DNA from: a virus
Taxonomy: Duplodnaviria > Heunggongvirae > Uroviricota > Caudoviricetes
Direction: 5' to 3' (one strand)
Length of the DNA: 64,000 nucleotides
IMG/VR virus record: IMGVR_UViG_3300044843_000700
Location: 1-64,000 of that record
Below, piece after piece: positions 2,355 to 50,199 of the stretch. How positions within the stretch are numbered: the stretch's first letter is position 1; each line of letters begins with the position of its first letter. Below the pieces are notes generated by a model. That model was not told the DNA's origin, did not search any database, and saw nothing but the letters and a program-made list of their open reading frames with translations. The position numbers and the translations under genes were made by a program.

Positions 2355-3452
2355 TTACCATTGCTGGTAAGAAATTTTGCTAGGATCTCTGTCTTCAAGA
2401 GCAGATTTGACCCACCTTTCATCAACAGTATCTCGATAGCATAGGATATGGATTGTTGCGACATCATCCGGATTTAATCTCAGCAATCTTCCGATTCTCT
2501 GAGAAGCTTTTCGCTCGTTTCCATAAGCATGCAGGATTATACCCTCTCTAAGATTAGGGATATTTACACCTTCATTCAACTGTAGTACAGCTGAGAGTCG
2601 GTTTATTTCTCCCTTCTTAAATAGGATGAGGTTATCCTCTGAATCAGGGTTACCGCTATGGTAACTGTGAGAACACAATCTGTCTGCTTGATCCTGCGTA
2701 TTAGCAAAGATTATGTGTTTGTCCGTTATTCGAGAGGCAATTTTTGCTGCTAGTACTTCCTTACTTGGAAAATCCATCATAGACTTCATCCTCATCACAC
2801 TCATGATTTGCTGTTCTTTTTTGTGAGCAGCTGCATCAAGTCTTTGACTCCAGTACTGATAAGTTGCAAGTTCAGACGTATACCATACTTTTCCTTTACG
2901 CTCTACACGCATAGTCTTGTTAGGATCTAGCGAGAGCATATGGATGATGATCTTGTAGTCGTTCAATACCTTATCACCTACTGCATCCTCCATCTCATAC
3001 TCATACACAATAGGGCAAAACTGGGAAACCATCTTGCCTTTTTCGGATTTCTCCCAACGAGGCGGTGTTCCTGTTAAACCTAAGATCTTGCCGGTATGAT
3101 TCCTCAACCATTCTTCGTGAGTATACAATAACGAGTGACATTCATCAAGGTAGACTACATCGTAATCGCTATCCTGTTTTGGAAGAGATAGGTAAGTAGT
3201 AAAGTGCATATGTGGTATAAGGTACTCATAGCCGTATTGTTTAGCCTGTTCTATCCACTCATCGTGTATAGAGATCTTCGGTGCAACAATCAAAAACTTG
3301 GAGTAGTCTGTGTAATTTTCAGCCATGTGCTTAATACCAAGTAAGGTTTTTCCAACACCCATTGATAAATACACACCGGCTCTTCGTAGAGGTAGTACTT
3401 TAGCAAGAGCTTCACCTTGTACGCGGGTTTTGATTTGGTCTCTTGTTTCCAT
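2355..3452 (-). CDS. superfamily-2 DEXH-box helicase
   Basis: Walker A SMGVGKT, Walker B VVYLDECH, motif III GLTGTP, motif VI QRIGRLLR in conserved order. Confidence 0.7.
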   Translation of the reverse strand: METRDQIKTRVQGEALAKVLPLRRAGVYLSMGVGKTLLGIKHMAENYTDYSKFLIVAPKISIHDEWIEQAKQYGYEYLIPHMHFTTYLSLPKQDSDYDVVYLDECHSLLYTHEEWLRNHTGKILGLTGTPPRWEKSEKGKMVSQFCPIVYEYEMEDAVGDKVLNDYKIIIHMLSLDPNKTMRVERKGKVWYTSELATYQYWSQRLDAAAHKKEQQIMSVMRMKSMMDFPSKEVLAAKIASRITDKHIIFANTQDQADRLCSHSYHSGNPDSEDNLILFKKGEINRLSAVLQLNEGVNIPNLREGIILHAYGNERKASQRIGRLLRLNPDDVATIHILCYRDTVDERWVKSALEDRDPSKISYQQW

Positions 3453-3463
3453 GCTATAGTTGT

Positions 3464-3802
3464 TTAGTAGATTCTCCTGAAGTATAGTTCAGTTGGCATA
3501 TAACCACCGAACACGAATTTGGTGACATCGCATAACCAGATCTCCTTAGGGAAATCTTTGTTACCATATGTCTTGTATATCGCTCCTCCTTCTTTTGGCG
3601 TATGCTCTTTTAGAGTGAGACGATAGAAATCATCGATTGGTGCTTGAGCTACTTTTAAAGATACCTTATCAGCTCCTAGAGCTAATGCATCCAAAAGTTT
3701 GTCAGCTCCGGCAACCATGGCCAGGTCAGCTTTGCTTCCTGTCCATTCAGGTAGGACGATGAACCATCCTGCTTTTTCCTTTTCAAAGTGTAGTGTTTTC
3801 AT
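3464..3802 (-). CDS. hypothetical protein
   Basis: 112-aa ORF abutting helicase gene. Confidence 0.4.
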   Translation of the reverse strand: MKTLHFEKEKAGWFIVLPEWTGSKADLAMVAGADKLLDALALGADKVSLKVAQAPIDDFYRLTLKEHTPKEGGAIYKTYGNKDFPKEIWLCDVTKFVFGGYMPTELYFRRIY

Positions 3803-6984: not shown

Positions 6985-7487
6985 ACTGGGTCCGGTTTGA
7001 GTTCGTAGAAATTGTGTGGAAGGATACCCTCATTAATGAGTTTATCCACTACCTGCCTCTTGTCAATCTTTAAGGCTTCGAGACTAATGCTGCACTTGAA
7101 TTCTGGATCTATGGTTGTACTCTCTACAAGAGACTTTGTGAGAGGACTCTTAGGAAAGTACTTGGTGAAAAAGTTGTTGGTGAATTGGTTAATGAGTTGT
7201 TGTTTCCAGACATTCAGCACAATTCGTGTCCTCTTGTGCACTTTCTTGATACGCGCTCTTTGGTCTTTGCGCATATCTTTGATCTCCGATTGCGTGTACA
7301 CACTCAATCCAAACAGGGCTCTGTGGTAGAGGAAATTTTGCCGGCTATTGAGATGATCATGCTCTATCTGCTGATACCTCTTACCGCGATATAGAGTTCC
7401 TTCTACCTGGTAGTCGCTTAGTCTACCTTGATAATCCGCCTTTCCAGGTGGCGGAAAAACCTGCTTTGATGGGTGTTTTTTTGTCAT
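6975..7487 (-). CDS. hypothetical protein
   Basis: 170-aa ORF. Confidence 0.4.
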   Translation of the reverse strand: MTKKHPSKQVFPPPGKADYQGRLSDYQVEGTLYRGKRYQQIEHDHLNSRQNFLYHRALFGLSVYTQSEIKDMRKDQRARIKKVHKRTRIVLNVWKQQLINQFTNNFFTKYFPKSPLTKSLVESTTIDPEFKCSISLEALKIDKRQVVDKLINEGILPHNFYELKPDPVCN

Positions 7488-8958: not shown

Positions 8959-9402
8959 TTATTGGTCAAGGGGATATTCGTCCACAGGAAATATTGCAGA
9001 TTCTTCTACATCTGTAGTGTCCTCTCCTTCTTTTCCTGAAGAGTCAAGATAAGTATACTTTACAGTGTACGGCTTCTCTTGAGTTTTGATGAGCTTGGTT
9101 ATCATACAGGTTATTCGACCTTGTTTGATCATACCAGCTTCCGTCATCTTTTCATCGTCTATTCTCCATGTATAGAGACTTGACTTGTTTACGAGTACCT
9201 TTTGCCCGACCTTGAATTTGAATTCATCTTTCAGTCCGCTGAAGGACTTGTACAGTTGTGAGAGACCCACTTCTGTCACCGACAAGTTGTCGACGATTAC
9301 TTGGGATATCAAGTCGGAGTGTTCAGAACCCAGCATCTTTTTTAGCTGGGTTCTGATTTGCTCCTTGTGAATCTTTACCTGTATGTAGTCTTTATTGCTC
9401 AC
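8959..9402 (-). CDS. hypothetical protein
   Basis: 147-aa ORF. Confidence 0.4.
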   Translation of the reverse strand: MSNKDYIQVKIHKEQIRTQLKKMLGSEHSDLISQVIVDNLSVTEVGLSQLYKSFSGLKDEFKFKVGQKVLVNKSSLYTWRIDDEKMTEAGMIKQGRITCMITKLIKTQEKPYTVKYTYLDSSGKEGEDTTDVEESAIFPVDEYPLDQ

Positions 9403-9848: not shown

Positions 9849-10832
9849 TTACTTAACGTTGATCATAGGGGTACTATTCCCTAATACTGTTGTCGGTAGT
9901 TTTCCGTCCCAGGTTTGTGCTTTGATGTACTCTACATATAGAGCATTAAGCTCTTTCTGTTTGAGTCGCATGGCTTCGGCTACACCTCGGGCTTCGATAA
10001 TGTCTGCTTCTGCTTTACCGGATGCACGAATAACTGCTTGGGCTGAGTCACCTCTTGCTTCGGCAATCATCTTCTTAGCATTTGCTTCAGCAACCAGAGC
10101 TTCTTGCATTTTTGCTTGCGCTTGTTGTACAGCTTGAGTCTTCGCGTTAATAGCATCCTTCAATGCATCAGGCGGAACAATGTTTGTCCTAAGCTGACTT
10201 ACGATAAACCATTTCGATACACGCTTATTACACTCGGTTATGATAGCAGATTCAAACTCTTCTCGTTTGTTGAAGATATCATCTACCGTCCACCGGTTAG
10301 CTACATCGTTAACGGATCCAACAATCGCTGTCATCAACCATCCCTTTTCGATTCCTTTGATGTCCAATCGTAGTTCAGAGAACATATCTCCTACTGCATC
10401 GGCCTTCAATGAATAGTTAAAGGTCGGCTTAATGGTAGCTTGGAATCCACCTTTGGTTATCACAATCTGGTTATCGTATTCAATGTGTTGCTGAAAGGTA
10501 GGGAACTCATACAAGTTCTCCGTCCAGCTGTTGTATACAACCCATCCTGTTTTGTATGTGTAGTCGGATACACCGCGTTCATTACCGGTTAATTTTACCT
10601 TTATACCGATGTGTCCAGCATCTACCCTTTCAAGGGAATAAGGCTGAATCATTCCGGTCAGGAGTCCTACTACAACAATGGCGATCGGAGTAAACAACCA
10701 CTTTGGATTGAAAGGTCGGGTAACATCGCCGTAACGATCTTTTTGTTCCGGTCCGAACGCATTACTTCGTGTGGATACAAGCCATCCGGCAGCCACAACG
10801 ATTGAGAGCAGGATAATAATCAATGAGATCAT
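9849..10832 (-). CDS. SPFH/band-7 (stomatin/prohibitin/HflKC-like) membrane protein
   Basis: N-terminal TM helix then SPFH core and Ala/Glu-rich coiled coil AQAKMQEALVAEANAKKMIAEARGDSAQAVIRASGKAEADIIEARGVAEA. Confidence 0.6.
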   Translation of the reverse strand: MISLIIILLSIVVAAGWLVSTRSNAFGPEQKDRYGDVTRPFNPKWLFTPIAIVVVGLLTGMIQPYSLERVDAGHIGIKVKLTGNERGVSDYTYKTGWVVYNSWTENLYEFPTFQQHIEYDNQIVITKGGFQATIKPTFNYSLKADAVGDMFSELRLDIKGIEKGWLMTAIVGSVNDVANRWTVDDIFNKREEFESAIITECNKRVSKWFIVSQLRTNIVPPDALKDAINAKTQAVQQAQAKMQEALVAEANAKKMIAEARGDSAQAVIRASGKAEADIIEARGVAEAMRLKQKELNALYVEYIKAQTWDGKLPTTVLGNSTPMINVK

Positions 10833-12684: not shown

Positions 12685-14082
12685 TTATTCAGTTACCTGG
12701 ATGAGTCTGTATCGATCAGTATTCACTGTATCCATCATCAGTTGTTCAGGAGAGTAGATCTCGCCTTTCAATACTGACTTCAAGATAGAGGGACTGAATC
12801 CGGATACAAGACCGATTCCTTTATCGCTCTTCTGTGCAGGAGAGTTGCCGATACGACCGTTTACATTCCAGAAGATGATTTCCGGCATCTTGTAACCAGC
12901 TGCCTGGTACTTCTGACGGATTACATCCAGGTTTGTACCTGATGCGCGGTATCTACAAGCTGAATCAAACTCCATATCAGAGATGATCAAGATCTTGGTA
13001 GGCATTTCGTCCTCAGAGATCTTCTCTCTGATTGCACTGTTGAGGATTAAGTCAAAGGTCGACTGCAGATTTGTGGTACCACCCCATGGAGCTTGATTCA
13101 ACTGACGCATCCTTTGAGCAAGTGACCCTTTCAGGTATTGCATCTCAGGTTTTTCAGAGAAAGTCAAGAAGGCATCTTTGAAGATACCTTTGTTACGCTC
13201 AGAGATATAAATCCCCAGTGCTACACTTACATCCATAGGCAATCCCATCATACTTCCAGATACATCACACACCGGAATGATGCGTTCTGTTGATCCTTCC
13301 ATATAATCTGGTAGGTTATTCCACTGTGCTTCGACTGCACGCTCATTCTCCCCATTATTAATTGCTTGATACAATTGATGAGGGAATAATACTGATGCGT
13401 TGATCTTAGCTTCACCTGAATGTACAGCCTCAATATACGCTTTCATACGTTCTTCATCGTGTTTGAAAAATGCCTTGCGGTATTTATTCATCGCGATAGA
13501 AGGTACTGCTTCGTACTTGATACCTTTCCATTCTCGGTTACACATCTGCGTTTCCACTACCTTAGTCATAGCCACTAGCTTCTTACGAAACTCCTTAGGT
13601 GTCATACCAAGATAACGATGCATGGCTACAAACCATGGACCTTTGCGCGGGAACCATTTGGCCAAGAGATTCGCATTAGAGGATTCCTCAAGAGAATGCT
13701 TCAACCAGTTAAGGTTATTCTCGTTTGGCTTCTCTATCGCGAACACATCCTTCCAATACCCAAACTCTGGTACATGTACCATTAGTTTGTCTGCGACCTC
13801 AGGATATTTATCCACAATGTGTCGCATGATTGTATGAAAGAATCGGCGCTCACCTGCACCACCACGGGCATCACGAGACCAGAATAAAATCTTGGCTGCG
13901 ATATCTGCATCTTGAGCATATGCTCTTTCGAAGATGGTGATGATAGACTTCTCGTCCATATTACGAGATGCTCCTGCAAGGAAGAACATATCGAGACAGA
14001 AGTTCAAGGAGGTCGAGTGAGTAACTGCTCCTTTATTTGTTGTAGCGTCATAGCTACGTGCTGCATTAACAAGTCTGCTCAT
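12685..14082 (-). CDS. von Willebrand factor A (MIDAS) domain protein, DUF2828/Ro60-like
   Basis: DVSGSM MIDAS motif followed by conserved T and D (ILIISDMEFD); helical N-terminal half; architecture resembles Ro60/Rsr (helical TROVE-like plus vWA). Confidence 0.55.
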   Translation of the reverse strand: MSRLVNAARSYDATTNKGAVTHSTSLNFCLDMFFLAGASRNMDEKSIITIFERAYAQDADIAAKILFWSRDARGGAGERRFFHTIMRHIVDKYPEVADKLMVHVPEFGYWKDVFAIEKPNENNLNWLKHSLEESSNANLLAKWFPRKGPWFVAMHRYLGMTPKEFRKKLVAMTKVVETQMCNREWKGIKYEAVPSIAMNKYRKAFFKHDEERMKAYIEAVHSGEAKINASVLFPHQLYQAINNGENERAVEAQWNNLPDYMEGSTERIIPVCDVSGSMMGLPMDVSVALGIYISERNKGIFKDAFLTFSEKPEMQYLKGSLAQRMRQLNQAPWGGTTNLQSTFDLILNSAIREKISEDEMPTKILIISDMEFDSACRYRASGTNLDVIRQKYQAAGYKMPEIIFWNVNGRIGNSPAQKSDKGIGLVSGFSPSILKSVLKGEIYSPEQLMMDTVNTDRYRLIQVTE

Positions 14083-25806: not shown

Positions 25807-26282
25807 TTACAGGCTAAAGGGGGTTGACTGCCGTATATACTCGTGTTCCCGAGGTGCATCAGTCAATGTATAATCAAGCACAGGCCTCGTGCGTTGGACA
25901 TCACAAGACATGACCAAGACAAGGATGACCAAGACCATCCAGATGTTCTCATCCCATCAAGCCACAAGAAACATTCTCCTGTAAGAATTCTTTTTCCTCG
26001 TGTCCCATGAAATCAGATTTGGTCTGGCAAGCACCCCGGGGTACCCCCGCTTTCCAAACACCGAGGGGGGTTGATTGAGGGGCCCTCCTCACACTCCCGA
26101 ACATGCACTGGTCCTGTATCCCGAGAAAAATTTTGTCCCTACTCTTGCACATTAAGATCTTATGCTTATCTTTGTGCCATGAGACAATCGCTACTCTTTA
26201 GTTATTGCTGGTTATCGCCTAAGGGTGATCCGGGTAACTATTGAAGTAATGTCTCGTATTGAGGTTAAGCATTATGGAACAA

Positions 26283-26314
26283 AGCCCGGAGTAATATCCG
26301 GGCTTTTTCTTTTT
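26283..26314 (+). terminator. terminator-like hairpin abutting first tRNA
   Basis: agcccgga-gtaata-tccgggct followed by TTTTTCTTTT; tRNA-Phe begins at next base. Confidence 0.4.
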
Positions 26315-26387
26315 GGAGCTATAGCAAAGACGGTCTATGCGTGGGACTGAAAATCCTGAGATCCTGGTTCGATACCAGGTGGCTCCA
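26315..26387 (+). tRNA. tRNA-Phe (GAA)
   Basis: Cloverleaf by hand: acceptor GGAGCTA/TGGCTCC, anticodon loop CTGAAAA, T-arm CCTGG-TTCGATA-CCAGG. Confidence 0.8.
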
Positions 26388-26393
26388 CTGATT

Positions 26394-26477
26394 GGGAACT
26401 GATAGTCGTTTTGGATACGGCAGCCGGACTGTAAATTCGGTCTCTTCGGGGGAGTGGTTCGAGTCCACCAGGTCCCA
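26394..26477 (+). tRNA. tRNA-Tyr (GTA), type II
   Basis: Anticodon arm CCGGA-CTGTAAA-TTCGG, long variable arm, T-loop TTCGAGT, discriminator A; acceptor has one A.G mismatch, D-arm irregular. Confidence 0.5.
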
Positions 26478-26483
26478 CAACAT

Positions 26484-26577
26484 GGAAAGTGAAGCAGTGG
26501 CATTGGAGCCGCGACCGGTCTTGAAAACCGGGTGTCGGGTGATAAACTTGACTGGGGGTCGGGTCCTCCGCTTTCCG
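26484..26577 (+). tRNA. tRNA-Ser (TGA), type II, CCA encoded
   Basis: Acceptor GGAAAGT/GCTTTCC, anticodon arm CCGGT-CTTGAAA-ACCGG, discriminator G then CCA; layout parallels E. coli Ser-TGA. Confidence 0.6.
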
Positions 26578-26581
26578 CCAT

Positions 26582-26654
26582 ACATGAGTAGCTCAGTCGG
26601 TAGAGCTCTGGTCTCCAAAACCAGTGGTCGGAGGTTCGAACCCTTCCTCATGTG
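26582..26654 (+). tRNA. tRNA-Trp (CCA)
   Basis: Perfect acceptor ACATGAG/CTCATGT, D-stem GCTC/GAGC, anticodon arm CTGGT-CTCCAAA-ACCAG, T-loop TTCGAAC. Confidence 0.8.
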
Positions 26655-26736
26655 CAAAATGTTTCCCTCATTAATGAGGGAAACAAAGTATAACTATCTG
26701 AGCGTTATTTTACTTTAACGCCTGAAAGTAAAATAA

Positions 26737-26809
26737 GGTACCGTGGATGAGCGGTTTAGTCCTCAGTCTGCAAAACTCGAGTACGCGTGTTCGAATCACG
26801 CCGGTACCT
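26737..26809 (+). tRNA. tRNA-Cys (GCA)
   Basis: Perfect acceptor GGTACCG/CGGTACC, T-arm GCGTG-TTCGAAT-CACGC, anticodon loop CTGCAAA; one C.C mismatch in anticodon stem. Confidence 0.6.
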
Positions 26810-26814
26810 CTTCC

Positions 26815-26898
26815 GGAAAGTAAACCTACCTGGGTAGGAGCAGCCTGCTAAGCTGTCTGGTCGCAGTAGCGACTGTGGATCAGGGCCACTGCTTTCCG
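26815..26898 (+). tRNA. tRNA-Ser (GCT), type II
   Basis: Same acceptor as Ser-TGA (GGAAAGT/GCTTTCC, disc G), anticodon arm GCAGC-CTGCTAA-GCTGT, variable hairpin GTCGC-agta-GCGAC; atypical T-loop. Confidence 0.5.
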
Positions 26899-26906
26899 CA
26901 ACATAT

Positions 26907-26985
26907 GCCCTCTTGGCGAAATTTGGTAGACGCGCTAGACTTAGGATCTAGTCTTCGGGTGAGAGTTCGAGTCTCTCAGAGGGTA
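26907..26985 (+). tRNA. tRNA-Leu (TAG), CCA encoded, 9-nt variable arm
   Basis: Acceptor GCCCTCT/AGAGGGT, anticodon arm CTAGA-CTTAGGA-TCTAG, T-arm GAGAG-TTCGAGT-CTCTC, disc A, CCA follows. Confidence 0.75.
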
Positions 26986-27063
26986 CCATGTGTTACTTTT
27001 ATGTAACACGTTTAACACATTGATGAGATACAAAATTGGTTGTGTCTCACCGATGAGTTATAA

Positions 27064-27138
27064 ACTCCAGTGGCGAAACTGGTAAACGCAACAGACTTAA
27101 GATCTGTACCGCTGCCGGTTCGAGTCCGGCCTGGAGTA
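27064..27138 (+). tRNA. tRNA-Leu (TAA) with class-I-like 6-nt variable loop
   Basis: Perfect acceptor ACTCCAG/CTGGAGT, D-stem GCGA/ACGC, anticodon arm ACAGA-CTTAAGA-TCTGT, T-arm GCCGG-TTCGAGT-CCGGC, disc A. Confidence 0.6.
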
Positions 27139-27342
27139 CAACATGTATAGAAAATCGAAAAAAGTTTGCATGTAGTGTTGCACATGTAAACTTTCTTTGT
27201 ATATTTGTAGCGCAAATGAGAAATATACAACATACGGCCCAGATGAATATTGTGCGCAAAGGCGATGAACCGTCTTGCCCGCAGGCTTGTTTTGTTGTAT
27301 CGATCATGTAATAGTTCATAACTGTCGAATACAAATAGGAGA

Positions 27343-27370
27343 AGCCTCGGGATAACACCGGGGCTTTTTC
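27343..27370 (+). terminator. terminator-like hairpin preceding second tRNA sub-cluster
   Basis: agcctcgg-gataaca-ccggggct then TTTTT; tRNA-Pro starts about 10 nt later. Confidence 0.4.
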
Positions 27371-27380
27371 ATTTTAACCC

Positions 27381-27453
27381 CGGGATGTAGTTCAGTTGGT
27401 AGAACGCGTGCTTTGGGAGCATGAGGTCGTAGGTTCGAGTCCTGCTATCCCGA
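27381..27453 (+). tRNA. tRNA-Pro (TGG)
   Basis: Acceptor CGGGATG/TATCCCG, D-stem GTTC/GAAC, anticodon arm CGTGC-TTTGGGA-GCATG, T-loop TTCGAGT. Confidence 0.8.
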
Positions 27454-27503
27454 CTAACAGATACGGAATTGGCCGCCACAAACTGTAAAGAAAAGGGTCA
27501 CTA

Positions 27504-27578
27504 GGGGTGCGGAGCTCGGTCCGGTCGAGCAGCTGCTTTGCAAGCAGAAGGTCGTGGGTTCAAATCCCACCCATTCCA
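27504..27578 (+). tRNA. tRNA-Ala (TGC)
   Basis: Anticodon loop TTTGCAA, variable AGGTC, T-arm GTGGG-TTCAAAT-CCCAC; acceptor GGGGTGC/CCATTCC gives G3.U70 (Ala identity) but C7.C66 mismatch and one extra nt before D-stem. Confidence 0.5.
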
Positions 27579-27691
27579 CAAGTTGAAACAACTCCTGTAG
27601 TCCAGAAGCGGGAGGATGAGGAACGGTTAAAGGCCGTGTGCTATGCTGGGCGTAGTGTAAGTTCTGAAAAAGCCTCATCAGTGTTGATACT

Positions 27692-27765
27692 GCGAGTGTA
27701 GCTCAATTGGCTAGAGTACCTGCCTTCCAAGCAGGAAGTTGTGAGTTCGAGCCTCACCACTCGCT
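27692..27765 (+). tRNA. tRNA-Gly (TCC)
   Basis: Perfect acceptor GCGAGTG/CACTCGC, anticodon arm CCTGC-CTTCCAA-GCAGG, T-arm GTGAG-TTCGAGC-CTCAC. Confidence 0.85.
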
Positions 27766-27770
27766 CTAAT

Positions 27771-27847
27771 GGTCTATGGGTCTGCTTGGTTGTGGACGCC
27801 TCCCTGTCACGGAGGATATCAGGTCGGTTCGACTCCGACATAGACCG
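27771..27847 (+). tRNA. tRNA-Asp (GTC)
   Basis: Acceptor GGTCTAT/ATAGACC, anticodon arm CCTCC-CTGTCAC-GGAGG, T-arm GTCGG-TTCGACT-CCGAC. Confidence 0.8.
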
Positions 27848-27851
27848 CAAT

Positions 27852-27924
27852 GGACTGTGAGCTCGGTTGGCTGAGCGGCACCCTGTTAAGGTGAGGGTCA
27901 TAGGTTCGATTCCTATACAGTCCG
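27852..27924 (+). tRNA. tRNA-Asn (GTT)
   Basis: Acceptor GGACTGT/ACAGTCC, anticodon loop CTGTTAA, T-arm ATAGG-TTCGATT-CCTAT; G27.A43 mismatch. Confidence 0.8.
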
Positions 27925-27931
27925 CAAACAT

Positions 27932-28003
27932 TGACATGTAGCTCAGAGGTAGAGCATCCGCCTGATACGCGGGAGGTCGTAGGTTCAATCCCTGCCATGT
28001 CAA
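27932..28003 (+). tRNA. tRNA-Ile (GAT)
   Basis: Acceptor TGACATG/CATGTCA, anticodon arm TCCGC-CTGATAC-GCGGG, T-loop TTCAATC. Confidence 0.8.
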
Positions 28004-28010
28004 CTAAAAT

Positions 28011-28085
28011 AGGAGTATAGCTCAGTTGGTTCAGAGCACTTGCCTTACAAGCAAGATGTCCATGGTTCGAATCCATGTACTCCTA
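28011..28085 (+). tRNA. tRNA-Val (TAC), CCA encoded
   Basis: Acceptor AGGAGTA/TACTCCT, anticodon arm CTTGC-CTTACAA-GCAAG, T-arm CATGG-TTCGAAT-CCATG, then A-CCA. Confidence 0.85.
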
Positions 28086-28164
28086 CCACGAAGATTATGT
28101 ACAACTTGTTTAAGATACGTAGGAAGAAGAAAAGCAGATCTAAGAGATCAGCATGATAATCTAT

Positions 28165-28237
28165 TCCCTCGTAGCAAACCGGTTGTAGGCAGCAGACTTT
28201 TAATCTGCGGGGCTGGGTTCGACTCCCAGCGGGGGAA
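28165..28237 (+). tRNA. tRNA-Lys (TTT)
   Basis: Acceptor TCCCTCG/CGGGGGA, anticodon arm GCAGA-CTTTTAA-TCTGC, T-arm CTGGG-TTCGACT-CCCAG. Confidence 0.8.
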
Positions 28238-28245
28238 CTGTAAGC

Positions 28246-28317
28246 GCCCCTGTAGCTCAATGGAAGAGCAAGAGACTTCTAAGCTCAAGGTTACCAGTTC
28301 GAGTCTGGTCAGGGGTT
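28246..28317 (+). tRNA. tRNA-Arg (TCT), CCA encoded
   Basis: Acceptor GCCCCTG/CAGGGGT, D-stem GCTC/GAGC, anticodon loop CTTCTAA with weak 3-bp stem, T-arm ACCAG-TTCGAGT-CTGGT. Confidence 0.6.
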
Positions 28318-28326
28318 CCAAGTAAT

Positions 28327-28400
28327 AGGCCCTTAGCTCAGCTGGTCAGAGCAGTACTCTTATAAGGTAAAGGTCACTGGTTCAAACCCGGTAGGGCCTA
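28327..28400 (+). tRNA. tRNA-Ile (TAT), AUA-decoding
   Basis: Perfect acceptor AGGCCCT/AGGGCCT disc A, D-stem GCTC/GAGC, anticodon loop CTTATAA (TAT), T-arm ACTGG-TTCAAAC-CCGGT; G27.A43 mismatch. Confidence 0.65.
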
Positions 28401-28408
28401 CAAAATAT

Positions 28409-28482
28409 AGCGGGGTGGACTGGAGTGGTTCCAGCTCGGTCTCATAAGCCGAACGACGTGGGTTCGAATCCCTCTCCCGCTA
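28409..28482 (+). tRNA. tRNA-Met (CAT) (elongator or Ile2-lysidine type not resolved)
   Basis: Acceptor AGCGGGG/TCCCGCT disc A, D-stem CTGG/CCAG, anticodon arm TCGGT-CTCATAA-GCCGA, T-loop TTCGAAT with one T.T in T-stem. Confidence 0.6.
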
Positions 28483-28547
28483 CAAATGAGTGGTAATGAC
28501 GCCTGACAAAGGAGGGATATAGTACCAGGTTACCTCGCACTCATTAT

Positions 28548-28620
28548 GTCCCGGTCATCTAGTGGTCCAGGATACTTCCCTTTCACGGAAGTCACACGGG
28601 TTCAAATCCCGTCCGGGATA
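28548..28620 (+). tRNA. tRNA-Glu (TTC)
   Basis: Acceptor GTCCCGG/CCGGGAT, anticodon arm CTTCC-CTTTCAC-GGAAG, T-arm ACGGG-TTCAAAT-CCCGT; Glu-type D-arm. Confidence 0.85.
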
Positions 28621-28628
28621 CAATATTA

Positions 28629-28702
28629 GCCCGAGTAGCTCAGCAGGTTAGAGCTACTGTTTTGTAAACAGAGGGTCGGCGGTTCGATTCCGTCCTCGGG
28701 CT
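28629..28702 (+). tRNA. tRNA-Thr (TGT)
   Basis: Perfect acceptor GCCCGAG/CTCGGGC, anticodon loop TTTGTAA, T-arm GGCGG-TTCGATT-CCGTC; A27.A43 mismatch. Confidence 0.8.
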
Positions 28703-28704
28703 CT

Positions 28705-28777
28705 GTGGCCGTAGTTCAAATGGTGGAACGTCTGCTTGTGGCGCAGAAGGTTGCGGGTTCAAGTCTCGCCGGTCACC
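28705..28777 (+). tRNA. tRNA-His (GTG), CCA encoded
   Basis: Acceptor GTGGCCG/CGGTCAC disc C then CCA, anticodon arm TCTGC-TTGTGGC-GCAGA, T-arm GCGGG-TTCAAGT-CTCGC; starts 2 nt after tRNA-Thr. Confidence 0.8.
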
Positions 28778-28784
28778 CCAATTA

Positions 28785-28856
28785 GGCCCCGTGGCGCAGC
28801 GGAAGCGCTTCTGAATACGGATCAGATGGTCGGGAGTTCGAATCTCTCCGGGGTCT
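28785..28856 (+). tRNA. tRNA-Arg (ACG)
   Basis: Acceptor GGCCCCG/CGGGGTC, D-stem GCGC/GCGC, anticodon arm TCTGA-ATACGGA-TCAGA, T-arm GGGAG-TTCGAAT-CTCTC. Confidence 0.85.
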
Positions 28857-28865
28857 CTAAAATAA

Positions 28866-28936
28866 TGCCCGGTCGTCTAGCGGCAGGACATCTGGTTTTG
28901 GACCAGAGAACGGACGTTCGAATCGTTCCCGGGCAA
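28866..28936 (+). tRNA. tRNA-Gln (TTG)
   Basis: Acceptor TGCCCGG/CCGGGCA, anticodon arm TCTGG-TTTTGGA-CCAGA, T-arm GGACG-TTCGAAT-CGTTC. Confidence 0.8.
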
Positions 28937-28992
28937 CAAAAATTTGGCGAAGTGATGATAATTGCGTATATTAAGATAAACACAGTTATCAC

Positions 28993-48961: not shown

Positions 48962-49666
48962 ATGGATAACAACACCATATTCCTAAAGGTTAAGCAACGT
49001 CTTAACAAACTTGCCAGCAACGATTATGATAATATCGAATGCTGGCAAGTTGTTGAGGCTTTTAACAAAGGCCAAGTAGAGTGGTGTCGTAGAAACCTTC
49101 ATGGTACTAACATTAAGCAAGAGGGAGACGAACAATCTAAAAGAAGGATTGATGATCTTCAGAGACTACTGAAGCCTCTTCCTTTAGTGATGACAGATCG
49201 TCAACTCTTTTATGAATCTCCTGCTCTTCCCGGAGATTACATGGAGTGGAAAAGGATCTCAGCTCAAGCTGTAAATCCTTGCTGCGATAAGCCTCGCCGA
49301 ATAATCATCTACCTCGCCGAAGAAGCAAACGTAGATGAGTTACTTCGAGATAAGAACAAGCAGCCTAGTTACGAATGGGGAGAGACTTTTTGTACACTCA
49401 TTGATAACAAGATCCGCATCTATACTGATGGTAAATTTGCGGTAGCGAATACTGAGTTGTACTATTACCGTCAACCAGTGAGAATCCAGATGCTAAATTG
49501 CGTGGATCCTTATACTCAACAGACAAGTACTGTAGATATTCCATGTGAGTTTAAAGACGACATGGTAGAGGTATTCATCGATGAAGCCGTTAAGATTATC
49601 GCCGGAGATATCGAATCGTTGAACCAGATGCAAAGAGCATCTCAATCTGTAGAACAGAATAACTAA
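48962..49666 (+). CDS. hypothetical structural protein
   Basis: 234-aa ORF. Confidence 0.45.
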   Translation: MDNNTIFLKVKQRLNKLASNDYDNIECWQVVEAFNKGQVEWCRRNLHGTNIKQEGDEQSKRRIDDLQRLLKPLPLVMTDRQLFYESPALPGDYMEWKRISAQAVNPCCDKPRRIIIYLAEEANVDELLRDKNKQPSYEWGETFCTLIDNKIRIYTDGKFAVANTELYYYRQPVRIQMLNCVDPYTQQTSTVDIPCEFKDDMVEVFIDEAVKIIAGDIESLNQMQRASQSVEQNN

Positions 49667-50199
49667 TGGAAGCACTAAAGCGCCCTGTACGTAAATCTCG
49701 TAACCCGCTTTTAAGCGAGGCGAGTGAGAAACTTCTCAACTTTCGAATAGAGCAAGAGGAAGCTTCTGCTCGTTTATACTTGGCAATGTCTATGTGCCTG
49801 AATAATGAGGGTTATACCGGTGCTGCTAAGTTGTGGAAAAAATATTCTGACGAGGAAATGGCTCATGCTGACTGGGCCCGTAATTATCTTCTGGCTATGG
49901 GTGTAACACCGGCAACCCCTATGTTACAGAAGCCGAAGACAGAATTTCCAGGATGCTTGGCTGAAATTATCAAAGACAGCTTTGAGCATGAGATCATTGT
50001 TACCAAGCAGATAAAAGCTTTGGCAGCTGACGCTTTCAAGCAAGCAGATCACATGTTGTATGAATTAGCTCTTTCTTACCTGAAAGAACAGGTAGAGGAG
50101 CATGACAAAACCCAAACTTGGCTCGATAAGCTTATGACTTTCGGATCTGATCCGTTGGCTTTACGCTTACTTGATAACGAGATGGGAGAAGGATTGTAA
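49666..50199 (+). CDS. ferritin-like four-helix-bundle (diiron-carboxylate-type) protein
   Basis: Spaced E / ExxH pattern: EQEEASARLY, DEEMAHADW, FEHEIIV, EQVEEHDK. Confidence 0.5.
   Translation: MEALKRPVRKSRNPLLSEASEKLLNFRIEQEEASARLYLAMSMCLNNEGYTGAAKLWKKYSDEEMAHADWARNYLLAMGVTPATPMLQKPKTEFPGCLAEIIKDSFEHEIIVTKQIKALAADAFKQADHMLYELALSYLKEQVEEHDKTQTWLDKLMTFGSDPLALRLLDNEMGEGL

What the first reader, a model, noticed from the sequence alone, without database searches (positions are those of the whole stretch)
26283..28936. Array of 24 tRNA genes in 2.65 kb, decoding all 20 amino acids
By-hand folding gives Phe, Tyr, Ser(TGA), Trp, Cys, Ser(GCT), Leu(TAG), Leu(TAA), Pro, Ala, Gly, Asp, Asn, Ile(GAT), Val, Lys, Arg(TCT), Ile(TAT), Met, Glu, Thr, His, Arg(ACG), Gln. 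Several encode CCA. Several share a 27:43 mismatch in the anticodon stem, which looks lineage-specific. A complete amino-acid set in one phage array is unusual and implies strong codon-usage divergence from the host or a broad host range.
Basis: seen in the sequence. Interest (0 to 1): 0.6.

Follow-up and report, generated by a model that had tools for sequence, protein, structure and literature searches.

The report
Self-regulating phage tRNA gene array
A crAss-like phage carries one tRNA gene for every codon box (24 in all), and each of its two tRNA blocks sits behind a tiny "test" reading frame spelled with exactly the codons those tRNAs read, followed by a terminator. This looks like a switch that makes phage tRNAs only when the cell runs short of them.

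Summary
There are 24 tRNA genes on the + strand at 26315-28936, covering all 20 amino acids. Twenty-two are canonical. Ala(TGC) and Ser(GCT) are atypical but are supported by conservation and compensatory changes in related phages. Five encode CCA. The 27:43 mismatches are real but not lineage-specific.

The host genome is a divergent crAss-like phage. Large and complete tRNA arrays are already known in phages, crAss-like ones included, so the array alone is a new member of a known kind.

The array is two units. Each has a Bacteroidota-type promoter-like motif, a short leader ORF, and a terminator hairpin that abuts the first tRNA.
- Leader 1 has ten consecutive codons that use all 8 tRNAs of block 1.
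- Leader 2 uses all 16 tRNAs of block 2 in its first 19 codons.
- Monte Carlo probabilities are at or below 5e-7 for each.

The codon composition, though not the order, is conserved in distant relatives. A segment inside each leader ORF is complementary to the terminator's 5' arm, and this pairing covaries across relatives.

This is the architecture of trp/his-type ribosome-mediated attenuation, applied here to tRNA genes. Caulobacter phiCbK-group phages have the same design. I found no published description. Function is inferred, not shown.

The parts
26145..26174 (+). Promoter-like motif P1: TTGCAC-N16-TAtcTTTG (Bacteroidota -33/-7 type)
   Evidence: TTG-N19-TAnnTTTG occurs 4 times in the window against 0.88 expected. 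Two of the four precede the two leaders. The motif is conserved in relatives. Function is inferred.
26179..26244 (+). Leader ORF 1, MRQSLLFSYCWLSPKGDPGNY*. Codons 4-13 (TCG CTA CTC TTT AGT TAT TGC TGG TTA TCG) use all 8 tRNAs of block 1.
   Evidence: Monte Carlo P < 5e-7. The same composition occurs in L007, L022, L016, L011, L021 and L027, in a different order in L021.
26224..26236 (+). Leader 1 segment 2 (GGUGAUCCGGGUA), which can pair with the 5' arm of terminator 1 (antiterminator)
   Evidence: It is the best upstream partner of the arm: -13.4 kcal/mol, and 3 of 200 shuffled arms do as well. The pairing forms when a ribosome is placed on the regulatory codons.
26281..26314 (+). Terminator-like hairpin plus T-run, ending 1 nt before tRNA-Phe
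   Evidence: Conserved with compensatory changes in L016, L011 and L021.
26315..26387 (+). tRNA-Phe(GAA)
26394..26477 (+). tRNA-Tyr(GTA), class II
26484..26580 (+). tRNA-Ser(TGA), CCA encoded
26582..26654 (+). tRNA-Trp(CCA)
26737..26809 (+). tRNA-Cys(GCA)
26815..26898 (+). tRNA-Ser(GCT), non-canonical: 5-bp D stem with a 4-nt loop, and T loop AUCAGGG
26907..26988 (+). tRNA-Leu(TAG), CCA encoded, short variable arm
27064..27138 (+). tRNA-Leu(TAA), 6-nt variable region (class I-like)
27161..27194 (+). 13-bp hairpin with a T-rich tail after block 1, overlapping the -33 part of P2
27178..27207 (+). Promoter-like motif P2: TTGCAC-N16-TAtaTTTG
27216..27311 (+). Leader ORF 2, MRNIQHTAQMNIVRKGDEPSCPQACFVVSIM*. 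Its first 19 codons use all 16 tRNAs of block 2, including AGA and CGC for the two Arg tRNAs and ATA and ATT for the two Ile tRNAs.
   Evidence: P = 5e-7. Window against L022: codons 1-19 show 5 synonymous and 0 non-synonymous changes. L021 has the same composition in a different order.
27277..27289 (+). Leader 2 segment 2 (GCCCGCAGGCUUG, codons 21-25), complementary to the 5' arm of terminator 2 (antiterminator)
   Evidence: It covaries: L022 has AGAGGCUCUU/AAGAGCCUCU and L021 has GGAGGCC/GGCCUCC.
27338..27375 (+). Terminator-like hairpin (13 bp) plus T-run, ending 5 nt before tRNA-Pro
27381..27453 (+). tRNA-Pro(TGG)
   Evidence: Eight compensatory pairs against the sister array.
27504..27578 (+). 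tRNA-Ala(TGC): G3:U70 present, C7xC66 mismatch, 3-nt linker between acceptor and D stems
27615..27679 (+). Conserved structured RNA that is not a tRNA: a 7-bp closing stem and two hairpins
   Evidence: Nine pairs with compensatory changes against L021. No Rfam match.
27692..27765 (+). tRNA-Gly(TCC)
27771..27847 (+). tRNA-Asp(GTC)
27852..27924 (+). tRNA-Asn(GTT)
27932..28003 (+). tRNA-Ile(GAT)
28011..28088 (+). tRNA-Val(TAC), CCA encoded
28165..28237 (+). tRNA-Lys(TTT)
28246..28320 (+). tRNA-Arg(TCT), CCA encoded
28327..28400 (+). tRNA-Ile(TAT). Its orthologue in L021 has anticodon CAT.
28409..28482 (+). tRNA-Met(CAT), elongator-like, with an atypical D arm
   Evidence: (31.8 bits)
28548..28620 (+). 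tRNA-Glu(TTC)
28629..28702 (+). tRNA-Thr(TGT)
28705..28780 (+). tRNA-His(GTG): C73 and CCA encoded, T at position -1
28785..28856 (+). tRNA-Arg(ACG)
28866..28936 (+). tRNA-Gln(TTG)

Best explanation
**What it is.** The locus is a complete, non-redundant set of 24 tRNA genes in a divergent crAss-like phage. It is split into two transcription units: block 1 with 8 tRNAs (Phe to Leu-TAA) and block 2 with 16 tRNAs (Pro to Gln).

**Proposed control.** Each unit is controlled by a ribosome-mediated transcription attenuator.
1. Host RNA polymerase starts at a Bacteroidota-type promoter and transcribes a nearly leaderless short ORF.
2. The first part of that ORF is a check-list of codons, at least one for each tRNA encoded downstream.
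3. If every one of those charged tRNAs is plentiful, the ribosome runs on over the distal part of the ORF. That part would otherwise pair with the 5' arm of the terminator. The terminator then forms and transcription stops just before the first tRNA gene.
Scarcity could come from host shut-off or from tRNA-cleaving defence nucleases.
5. The antiterminator pairing then forms, polymerase reads through, and the tRNA block is made.
6. The phage tRNAs are processed by host RNase P and 3' nucleases, given CCA where it is missing (19 of 24), and modified and charged by host enzymes. They restore translation and shut the switch again.

**Shown here:**
- the tRNA genes and their structure-preserving evolution;
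- the leader ORFs and their codon content;
- the hairpins and alternative pairings, and their conservation and covariation.

**Inferred, not shown:** promoter use, translation of the leaders, termination and readthrough, and the physiological trigger.
For: **Array**
- establish the 24 tRNAs.
- Searches show compensatory evolution.
- One search shows one tRNA per codon box, with probability below 5e-7.

**Leaders**
- Leader 1 has a run of 10 codons covering all 8 block-1 tRNAs. Leader 2 has 19 codons covering all 16 block-2 tRNAs.
- Monte Carlo probabilities are below 5e-7 and 5e-7.
- The split is exact: leader-1 codons match block 1 and leader-2 codons match block 2.
- Composition is conserved but order is permuted in L021, whose neighbouring protein is only 36% identical.
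- In L022, the check-list part shows only synonymous changes, while the distal part changes freely yet keeps its complementarity to the terminator.

**RNA structure**
- The terminators abut the first tRNA of each block and are conserved with covariation.
- The best partner of the terminator's 5' arm lies at codons 21-27 of leader 2 in the window, L022, L016 and L021, with three different sequences.
- Folding with a ribosome mask switches the antiterminator on for regulatory codons and off for distal codons.

**Promoters and host**
- Promoter-like motifs sit in front of both leaders.
- Shine-Dalgarno motifs are essentially absent: 5 of 60 genes against a 12% background. This is consistent with a Bacteroidota host.

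**Independent replication in phiCbK-group Caulobacter phages**
- In CcrRogue gp083, 42 of 44 residues come from the 7 amino acids of the 13 downstream tRNAs (P = 2.7e-12), and the cognate codon of each tRNA is present.
- A second leader, QFVQIQVV, lies before Phe, Val, Ile and Gln tRNAs. Its antiterminator is -26.6 against -27.4 kcal/mol for the terminator.
- Three other phage arrays lack such leaders.

**Fit to the known mechanism**
- The layout matches the published definition of ribosome-mediated attenuation (PMC1183508).
Against: - No expression data exist. Translation of the leaders, the transcription start sites and termination are all unverified.
- In leader 2, a ribosome sitting at the stop codon would not cover the key antiterminator segment in the simple mask model. 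The switch therefore depends on kinetic coupling, which cannot be computed here.
- The leader-1 antiterminator is weak or not significant in L011 and L021.
- Deletion derivatives L011 and L027 keep leader 1 with its full check-list although most block-1 tRNA genes are gone. Either the leader also serves another purpose, such as gating downstream late genes or sensing host tRNAs, or the deletions are recent.
- L021's leader 2 contains one block-1 codon, CTA.
- TAnnTTTG on its own is not enriched in the window.
- Transcription-translation coupling in Bacteroidota is not established (my own knowledge).
- The host is unknown.
Confidence: 0.65

Rival explanations
1. Codon-usage compensation or host-range extension. 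The tRNAs supply codons that the host decodes poorly. The short ORFs and hairpins are incidental insulators.
For: - This is the classical explanation for phage tRNAs (PMC10264068 calls it the most widely accepted).
- AUA, AGA and CUA codons are used appreciably.
- Relatives that lost most of the array exist, so it is accessory.
Against: - The set is one tRNA per box regardless of codon frequency.
- Structural genes are not enriched for cognate codons.
- It does not explain why leader codons list exactly the tRNAs of the adjacent block in two phage lineages.
- It does not explain the covarying antiterminator.
Confidence: 0.12
2. The leaders are general sensors of translation or amino-acid status that time the rightward (late or structural) transcription unit. 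The tRNAs are merely its first cargo, and the switch is not a feedback on tRNA supply.
For: - The array lies at the head of the + strand block, in the same orientation as the structural genes. No terminator is seen between tRNA-Gln and the 657-aa gene.
- L011 and L027 keep leader 1 after losing most of the tRNAs.
Against: - A general sensor does not need the exact split of codons between the two leaders to match the two blocks.
- It also does not need codon-level matching to individual isoacceptors. Examples are AGA and CGC or ATA and ATT in this phage, and TTG, CTG and CTC or TCG, TCC and AGC in CcrRogue.
- In L016, four of the five residue changes in the leaders remove codons of lost tRNAs.
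Confidence: 0.15
3. The short ORFs encode small functional peptides, or are not translated at all. The hairpins are plain terminators or processing signals, and the codon match is a by-product.
For: - phiCbK-group records annotate gp083 simply as a hypothetical protein, with a separate terminator feature.
- Part of leader 1 is invariant at the DNA level in four relatives, which could reflect an RNA or DNA role.
Against: - Peptide order is not conserved while composition is (L021).
- Probabilities are 5e-7 or lower and 2.7e-12.
- In L022 the check-list part shows only synonymous changes.
- A terminator 1-5 nt before a tRNA, with no promoter in between, would silence the block unless it is read through.
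Confidence: 0.05

Closest known systems
Leader-peptide (ribosome-mediated) attenuators of amino-acid biosynthesis operons: trpL, hisL, leuL, thrL, pheL, ilvL
   Same: - A short leader ORF with 'regulatory' codons.
- An intrinsic terminator in front of the first regulated gene.
- A mutually exclusive antiterminator that involves the distal leader region. Stalling at the regulatory codons favours readthrough (definition in PMC1183508).
- Leader 1 even shows a trp-like 1:2 / 2:3 / 3:4 layout.
- Multivalent leaders, such as ilvL with Ile, Leu and Val, are a precedent for more than one amino acid (my own knowledge).
   Different: - The regulated genes here are tRNAs, not biosynthetic enzymes.
- The regulatory codons are not a run of one amino acid but a list of up to 16 different tRNAs, one or two codons each.
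- The element is phage-encoded.
- The leader mRNA is nearly leaderless, and the presumed host phylum lacks Shine-Dalgarno use.
- No Rfam leader family matches; the best hits have E of about 0.8-1.
Phage tRNA gene clusters: T5-like, phiCbK-like, mycobacteriophages, Cellulophaga phages (survey in PMC6409571)
   Same: A dense, same-strand cluster of at least 15 tRNAs. The density is 9.2 per kb, within the published 2-10 per kb range. All 20 isotypes are present, as in 8 surveyed clusters.
   Different: This array has exactly one gene per codon box with no duplicates. The T5-like and CcrRogue arrays I examined are redundant and incomplete. It contains no interspersed protein genes, and it is in a crAss-like genome.
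tRNA complements of crAss-like phages (1-34 tRNAs; the zeta phage Lera has 26, including two suppressors)
   Same: A crAss-like genome with a large tRNA block next to a module boundary (PMC10136315, PMC12386605).
   Different: There is no suppressor tRNA and no stop-codon recoding here. G+C is 43%. TerL is only about 25% identical to that of known crAss-like phages.
Cyanobacterial L-array of tRNA genes induced by translational stress (Anabaena, PMC8421152)
   Same: A supernumerary tRNA array that is silent by default and switched on when translation is impaired. This is the same physiological logic.
   Different: It is chromosomal, not phage-borne. No leader, attenuator or terminator is mentioned in that paper.
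T-box riboswitches
   Same: A cis-acting leader RNA that couples tRNA charging status to a terminator/antiterminator choice.
   Different: T-boxes bind uncharged tRNA directly, need no translation, and control aaRS or amino-acid genes, mainly in Firmicutes. There is no Rfam T-box hit here.
Phage tRNAs as counter-defence against tRNA-cleaving immunity (PMC10264068, PMC11555353, PMC11464382)
   Same: Phage tRNAs replace depleted host tRNAs. A demand sensor would suit that role.
   Different: No nuclease or target is known for this host. The anticodon loops look canonical. This role could not be tested.

Membership tests
tRNA genes (Rfam RF00005 / cloverleaf) | Score at or above the family gathering threshold, or detection by ARAGORN at default settings | tested here: met
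   Twenty are at or above 29 bits. ARAGORN at default finds 22 plus a mis-folded call over Ala. Ala is called correctly when isolated. Ser(GCT) passes only at a relaxed threshold, so this feature alone is inconclusive for that one gene.
tRNA genes (Rfam RF00005 / cloverleaf) | Base pairs of the cloverleaf maintained through compensatory changes in relatives | tested here: met
   Against L007: 23 double changes, 6 wobble-preserving single changes and 0 disruptive substitutions. Against L021: 102 double changes and 24 single changes; the 23 'broken' pairs are mostly alignment problems in Trp, Leu-TAG, His and Glu.
tRNA genes (Rfam RF00005 / cloverleaf) | Identity elements that fit the anticodon | tested here: met
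   G3:U70 in Ala; G73 in both Ser, Trp, Asp and Asn; U73 in Cys and Gly; A73 in Phe, Tyr, Leu, Pro, Ile, Val, Lys and Met; C73 in His. Assignments use E. coli identity rules from my own knowledge. Exceptions: His lacks an encoded G-1, and both Arg tRNAs have U73.
Viral tRNA gene cluster (PMC6409571 criteria) | At least 15 tRNA genes at a density of at least 2 per kb | tested here: met
   24 genes in 2,622 bases, or 9.2 per kb.
crAss-like phages (Crassvirales and relatives) | crAss-type major capsid, portal, large terminase, ring and muzzle proteins | tested here: met
   Pfam Crass_capsid at 111 bits against a cut-off of 27. PHROG terminase and portal hits. CrAss_Ring_1, CrAss_Ring_2 and crAss_MUZ on the same phage contig. 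All TerL tblastn hits are to crAss-like or Bacteroidota phages at about 25% identity. Formal placement by phylogeny was not done.
Ribosome-mediated transcription attenuator | Short leader ORF upstream of the regulated genes, containing codons cognate to the operon's product | tested here: met
   All 8 and all 16 downstream tRNAs are represented; P is 5e-7 or lower.
Ribosome-mediated transcription attenuator | Intrinsic terminator between the leader ORF and the first regulated gene | tested here: met
   Hairpin plus T-run at 26281-26314 and 27338-27375. Conserved with covariation. Sequence evidence only.
Ribosome-mediated transcription attenuator | Mutually exclusive antiterminator whose formation depends on ribosome position | tested here: met
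   The signal is clear for leader 2 in the window, L022, L016 and L021. It is also clear for leader 1 in the window and L016. It is weak for leader 1 in L011 and L021.
Ribosome-mediated transcription attenuator | Leader is translated, and termination or readthrough responds to charged-tRNA supply in vivo | not testable with these tools
   Needs Term-seq, ribosome profiling or reporter assays.
Suppressor-tRNA / stop-codon recoding system of crAss-like phages | Suppressor tRNA (CTA, TCA or TTA anticodon) and in-frame stop codons in late genes | tested here: not met
   No suppressor tRNA. Long uninterrupted ORFs in the standard bacterial code (table 11); stop-codon counts are TAA 53, TGA 15 and TAG 7.
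T-box or another known riboswitch / leader RNA family | Match to an Rfam cis-regulatory model | tested here: not met
   Only sub-threshold hits to Thr_leader and Trp_leader, at 20-21 bits and E of 0.8-1.
Anti-defence phage tRNA (evading anticodon nucleases) | Phage isoacceptor of a host tRNA targeted by a defence nuclease, with changes that block cleavage | not testable with these tools
   The host and its nucleases are unknown. The anticodon loops are canonical by E. coli standards.

The most novel reading that the evidence does not exclude
Phages of at least two unrelated lineages regulate their tRNA gene blocks with leader-peptide attenuators. The lineages are this crAss-like clade and the Caulobacter phiCbK group. 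The leader ORF in each is a codon-by-codon inventory of the tRNAs encoded downstream. This would be a self-correcting 'tRNA homeostat'. It senses a shortage of any listed charged tRNA, for example after host shut-off or cleavage by tRNA-targeting immunity, and answers by transcribing exactly those tRNAs. It would be the first case of tRNA genes controlled by ribosome-mediated attenuation. It would also be direct genetic evidence of what phage tRNAs are for.
Probability: 0.55. Interest if true: 0.9.

Novelty: new variant of a known kind. Interest (0 to 1): 0.82.

Why it matters
Why phages carry tRNA genes has been argued for about fifty years. The candidates are codon compensation, host shut-off and evasion of tRNA-cleaving defences.

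A leader that lists the tRNAs of its own operon, in front of a terminator, is a design statement. It says the phage makes these tRNAs when translation of those very codons slows down.

If confirmed, three things follow:
- It extends classical attenuation to a new class of regulated genes and to multi-tRNA sensing.
- It gives a simple sequence signature for finding regulated tRNA arrays in other phages.
- It makes the question experimentally tractable, because the same design occurs in the culturable phiCbK/Caulobacter system.

The minimal 24-anticodon set, with its compact promoter-leader-terminator modules, may also interest people building minimal translation systems.

Tried and rejected
**Readings rejected**
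- **ARAGORN's tRNA-Arg(ccg) at 27491-27579.** Rejected: its 'anticodon' changes to ctg in sister phages while the Ala(TGC) fold is invariant.
- **27:43 mismatches as a lineage marker.** Rejected: a T5-like phage has the same frequency.
- **Suppressor tRNAs or recoding.** None.
- **A codon-usage match between tRNAs and late genes.** None.
- **A 'kissing-loop' elbow in Ser(GCT).** Downgraded: G18, G19, U55 and C56 equivalents are retained, so only T54 and A58 and the D-arm geometry deviate.
- **The CAT tRNA as an initiator.** Rejected for the window: it has A1:U72 and only two G:C pairs at 29-31/39-41. L021's orthologue does have the GGG/CCC feature.

**Searches that led nowhere**
- **Host identification.** Two genome-contig scans found nothing: a Ser(GCT) pattern and the 657-aa protein family. 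Sample accessions are not in the paper library. There is no close DNA relative among deposited phages.
- **General enrichment of TAnnTTTG.** None. Only the extended motif in front of the two leaders stands out.
- **tRNA-processing or tRNA-modifying enzymes** among 20 large ORFs of the window. None found.
- **Further tRNAs.** None elsewhere in the window or in about 10 kb beyond each end.

**Methods that failed**
- **A generic enrichment scan for leaders** was too weak for large blocks and mis-defined the blocks. I replaced it with direct tabulation.
- **The count of structure pairs on the leader alignment** was not run. MAFFT shifts the 3' arm by one column in L021 and L022, so I used per-sequence folds and duplex energies instead.

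Full report
**1. The observation**

ARAGORN finds 23 tRNA genes at 26315-28937, all on the + strand, and none elsewhere in the 64-kb window. Rfam's tRNA model scores 20 of them above its gathering threshold.

- **The 'Ala' gene.** ARAGORN reports it as an 89-nt 'Arg(ccg)' with a poor fold. In sister phages the same call becomes 'Gln(ctg)', because the only substitution falls in that pseudo-anticodon. Where the upstream sequence is missing, ARAGORN calls tRNA-Ala(tgc). That fold (27504-27578) has the G3:U70 alanine determinant, a C7xC66 mismatch and a 3-nt linker before the D stem.
- **Ser(GCT), 26815-26898.** It appears only at a relaxed threshold. Its minimum-energy fold is a cloverleaf. It is 100% conserved while its flanks diverge. 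In a distant relative its acceptor and variable arms are rewritten with pairing kept, while its odd D arm and T loop (AUCAGGG) stay invariant.

So 24 tRNA genes is correct.

Other checks on the observation:
- Five genes encode CCA.
- Position 27:43 is mismatched in 5 of 24 tRNAs and is G-U in 4. A T5-like phage has 5 mismatches in 21, so this is a general property of that position, not a lineage marker.

**2. What genome this is**

- The window encodes a crAss-type major capsid protein (Pfam Crass_capsid, 111 bits), portal and large terminase.
- The same phage contig carries crAss ring and muzzle proteins.
- TerL matches only crAss-like and other Bacteroidota phages, at about 25% identity.
- No deposited phage is close at the DNA level.
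- The source contigs are 111-122 kb.
- Genes lack Shine-Dalgarno motifs: 5 of 60, against a 12% background. That fits a Bacteroidota host, but no host could be identified.
- The standard code is used and there are no suppressor tRNAs.

**3. The set and its evolution**

The 24 anticodons fill each of the 24 codon boxes exactly once. None of 2,000,000 random draws reproduced this.

If U34 reads all four codons of a box, only CGG is uncovered, and CGG is the rarest Arg codon here. The single CAT tRNA is elongator-like, so the host initiator tRNA is still needed.

The array is old and under selection:
- A sister phage has the same 24 genes in the same order (its neighbouring protein is 93% identical). 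tRNAs are 95% identical against 73% for spacers and 87% for the adjacent gene. There are 23 compensatory pair changes and no disruptive substitution.
- A distant relative, L021, keeps the synteny with 102 compensatory changes (its neighbouring protein is 36% identical). At the slot of Ile(TAT) it has an orthologue with a CAT anticodon.
- Three relatives are deletion derivatives with chimeric or decayed tRNAs: L016, L011 (a Trp/Arg-ACG fusion) and L027.

Large tRNA complements are already known in crAss-like phages: 1-34 tRNAs (PMC10136315) and 26 in a zeta phage (PMC12386605). Complete 20-isotype clusters are known in other viruses (PMC6409571). The array by itself is therefore a new member of a known kind.

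**4. What the codon-usage idea predicts and what is seen**

The phage uses all 61 sense codons with mild bias (GC3 0.42). In four-fold boxes it prefers NNT, which is not the Watson-Crick cognate of the U34 tRNAs.

Structural genes are not enriched for cognate codons: 0.416 against 0.460 in the other gene block. A uniform, one-per-box set is not what selective codon compensation predicts.

**5. The control regions**

The array is two blocks.
- Block 1: Phe, Tyr, Ser, Trp, Cys, Ser, Leu, Leu. These are the amino acids of the UNN row of the code.
- Block 2: the other sixteen tRNAs.

Each block is preceded by the same module.

*a) A promoter-like motif.* TTGCAC-N16-TAnnTTTG lies at 26145-26174 and 27178-27207. 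The pattern TTG-N19-TAnnTTTG occurs 4 times in the window against 0.88 expected. Two of those four are these sites, and they are conserved in relatives. That this is the Bacteroides -33/-7 consensus is from my own knowledge.

*b) A short ORF starting ATGAGA, 4-8 nt after the motif.*

*c) A hairpin plus T-run that ends 1-5 nt before the first tRNA*. With no room for a promoter after the hairpin, the tRNAs can only be transcribed by reading through it.

**6. The leader ORFs are check-lists**

| Leader | Peptide | Check-list codons | tRNAs covered |
|---|---|---|---|
| 1 (26179-26244) | MRQSLLFSYCWLSPKGDPGNY | codons 4-13: TCG CTA CTC TTT AGT TAT TGC TGG TTA TCG | all 8 of block 1, nothing else |
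| 2 (27216-27311) | MRNIQHTAQMNIVRKGDEP... | first 19 codons | all 16 of block 2 |

Leader 2 includes AGA and CGC for the two Arg tRNAs, ATA and ATT for the two Ile tRNAs, and an internal ATG.

With the phage's own codon usage, the leader-2 property has probability 5e-7. The leader-1 property did not occur in 2,000,000 trials.

Comparative evidence:
- In L021 both leaders keep the composition in a different order...LLLSYCSFWLL... and MRQLQHIAQPINTMEKGVDR....
- Between the window and L022, the 19 check-list codons differ by five synonymous changes and no replacement. Nine of the next twelve codons change.
- In the decayed array L016, four of the five residue changes in the two leaders remove codons of lost or decayed tRNAs. 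TCG becomes TTG and TTA (Ser-TGA is a pseudogene), GCC becomes GTT (Ala lost), and GAA becomes AAA (Glu lost).

**7. Terminator and antiterminator**

Before the terminator's 3' arm is made, its 5' arm pairs with a segment inside the distal leader ORF.

In leader 2 that partner always lies at codons 21-27, with three unrelated sequences:

| Relative | Segment in ORF | Terminator 5' arm |
|---|---|---|
| window | GCCCGCAGGCUU | AAGCCUCGG |
| L022 | AGAGGCUCUU | AAGAGCCUCU |
| L021 | GGAGGCC | GGCCUCC |

The energies are close to those of the terminator, and the pairings beat shuffled arms (0-9 of 200 do as well).

I then folded the nascent RNA with a ribosome-sized mask. It is disrupted when the ribosome is on codons 18-28.

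Leader 1 has a trp-like layout. The check-list pairs with segment 2 (UCCGGGU), which can instead pair with the terminator arm (GCCCGGA). The signal is weaker in L011 and L021.

These are the defining parts of ribosome-mediated attenuation (PMC1183508).

**8. Independent replication**

While using Caulobacter phage CcrRogue as a control, I found the same design there.

- **gp083** is annotated as a hypothetical protein. In it, 42 of 44 residues come from {A, L, S, H, T, K, P}, against a background of 0.46 (P = 2.7e-12). Those are the amino acids of the 13 tRNAs that follow: Pro x2, Thr, Lys x2, Leu x3, His, Ala, Ser x3.
  - Its codons include the cognate codon of every one of those isoacceptors.
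  - A terminator abuts tRNA-Pro, and it is annotated as such in the phiCbK record.
  - The property holds in phiCbK and Ccr10.
- **A second leader** (...YRQFVQIQVV...) precedes Phe, Val, Ile and Gln tRNAs. Its antiterminator is -26.6 against -27.4 kcal/mol for the terminator.

T5-like, Gordonia GMA2 and Erwinia Hena1 arrays show nothing comparable.

**9. Interpretation**

The best reading is a demand-driven switch. The antiterminator then forms, and the block that encodes exactly those tRNAs is transcribed. Plentiful tRNAs let the ribosome run on, and the terminator forms.

This favours the view that phage tRNAs back up a failing host tRNA pool, whether from shut-off or from tRNA-targeting defence (PMC10264068, PMC11555353). 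It argues against static codon compensation. The logic resembles the stress-induced cyanobacterial tRNA array (PMC8421152), for which no attenuator is described.

Four full-text searches found no report of leader-peptide control of tRNA genes. That library is incomplete, so prior description cannot be excluded.

**10. Caveats**

- Everything about function is inferred from sequence.
- Promoter use, translation of near-leaderless ORFs, coupling in Bacteroidota and actual termination are untested.
- In leader 2, a ribosome parked at the stop codon would not mask the key segment in my simple model. Timing therefore matters.
- L011 and L027 retain leader 1 without most block-1 tRNAs. The leader may also gate downstream genes, or the deletions may be recent.
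- The host is unknown.

**11. Verdict**

The attached check-list attenuators are a new variant of a classical mechanism. They recur in a culturable model phage and make an old question testable.

Noticed in passing
window 27615-27679; L021 about 3017-3085: A conserved structured RNA of about 65 nt that is not a tRNA. It has a 7-bp closing stem, two hairpins, the conserved motifs GGUUAAAG and GUUYUGAAAAAG, and 9 pairs with compensatory changes against L021. It lies between Ala and Gly here but between Gly and Asp in L021. No Rfam match.
   Followed up: partly
window 27454-27503: The Pro-to-Ala spacer and tRNA-Ala itself are almost invariant even in the distant relative L021, although tRNA-Pro next to them is 31% diverged. 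This is unexplained.
   Followed up: partly
window 26815-26898: tRNA-Ser(GCT) has a 5-bp D stem with a 4-nt loop and the T loop AUCAGGG (A54 and G58 instead of T54 and A58). Both arms are strictly conserved across the clade. Both Ser tRNAs share the acceptor stem GGAAAGU.
   Followed up: partly
window 28327-28400 vs L021 4127-4200: The AUA-reading tRNA has anticodon TAT in this phage but CAT in the orthologous slot of L021. CAT presumably needs lysidine, so the lineage has switched between TilS-independent and TilS-dependent decoding.
   Followed up: partly
window 28704-28780: tRNA-His has C73 and an encoded CCA but T, not G, at position -1. A T5-like phage tRNA-His has the same arrangement.
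   Followed up: partly
window, position 74 of all 24 tRNAs: Every tRNA is followed by C at position 74, although only 5 encode CCA; the rest read CAA, CTA, CTG or CTT. Position -1 is T in most of them, 15 of the 23 ARAGORN calls, and in no real gene is it G.
   Followed up: no
window 27064-27138 and 26907-26985: tRNA-Leu(TAA) has only a 6-nt variable region (class I-like), and tRNA-Leu(TAG) has a shortened 8-nt one. A T5-like phage also annotates a 77-nt Leu(TAA).
   Followed up: no
window 26655-26736 and 26986-27063: Spacers with very stable hairpins (z = -6.6 and -7.0). The first, a 76-nt pair of palindromes, is absent from sister phage L007 but present in L016, so it behaves like an insertion/deletion.
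   Followed up: partly
L016, L011 (2195-2300), L027 (8620-8700): Three relatives are deletion derivatives produced by recombination between tRNA genes. The results are a Trp-5'/Arg(ACG)-3' chimera in L011, a Phe/His-like chimera in L027, and pseudogenised Tyr and Ser plus Ala and Glu/Gln chimeras in L016. L016 might in part be an assembly artefact.
   Followed up: partly
L021 about 3335-3655: An HNH-endonuclease-like ORF (motif ...CANCHREEH) is inserted between tRNA-Asp and tRNA-Asn in the distant relative. It is absent from the window.
   Followed up: no
window 12685-14082 (-): A 465-aa protein with DUF2828 and DUF7788 domains (PHROG 850, 'RNA-binding protein'). It is possibly TROVE/Ro60-like, which is my own recollection. 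Weak Rfam YrlA (Y RNA-like) hits fall inside the tRNA array, probably because YrlA contains a tRNA-like domain.
   Followed up: no
L023 12270-12623 (just left of the window); window 49666-50199; window 9849-10832 (-): The phage also encodes a Tad2-like (anti-defence family) protein, a ferritin-like protein and an SPFH/Band 7 protein.
   Followed up: no
L020 (CcrRogue) 7121-7372 and 9025-9190; L029 (phiCbK) 1527-1756; L028 (Ccr10) 1527-1787: phiCbK-group Caulobacter phages have the same 'check-list leader plus terminator' modules in front of their tRNA blocks. A further candidate lies before tRNA-Glu and tRNA-Asp (L020 6422, MTHLLTRYEREATGLDTTTA) but is less clear.
   Followed up: partly
window 26315-27138: Block 1 groups exactly the amino acids of the UNN row of the genetic code (Phe, Leu, Ser, Tyr, Cys, Trp) together with their second codon boxes, CUN and AGY.
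   Followed up: no
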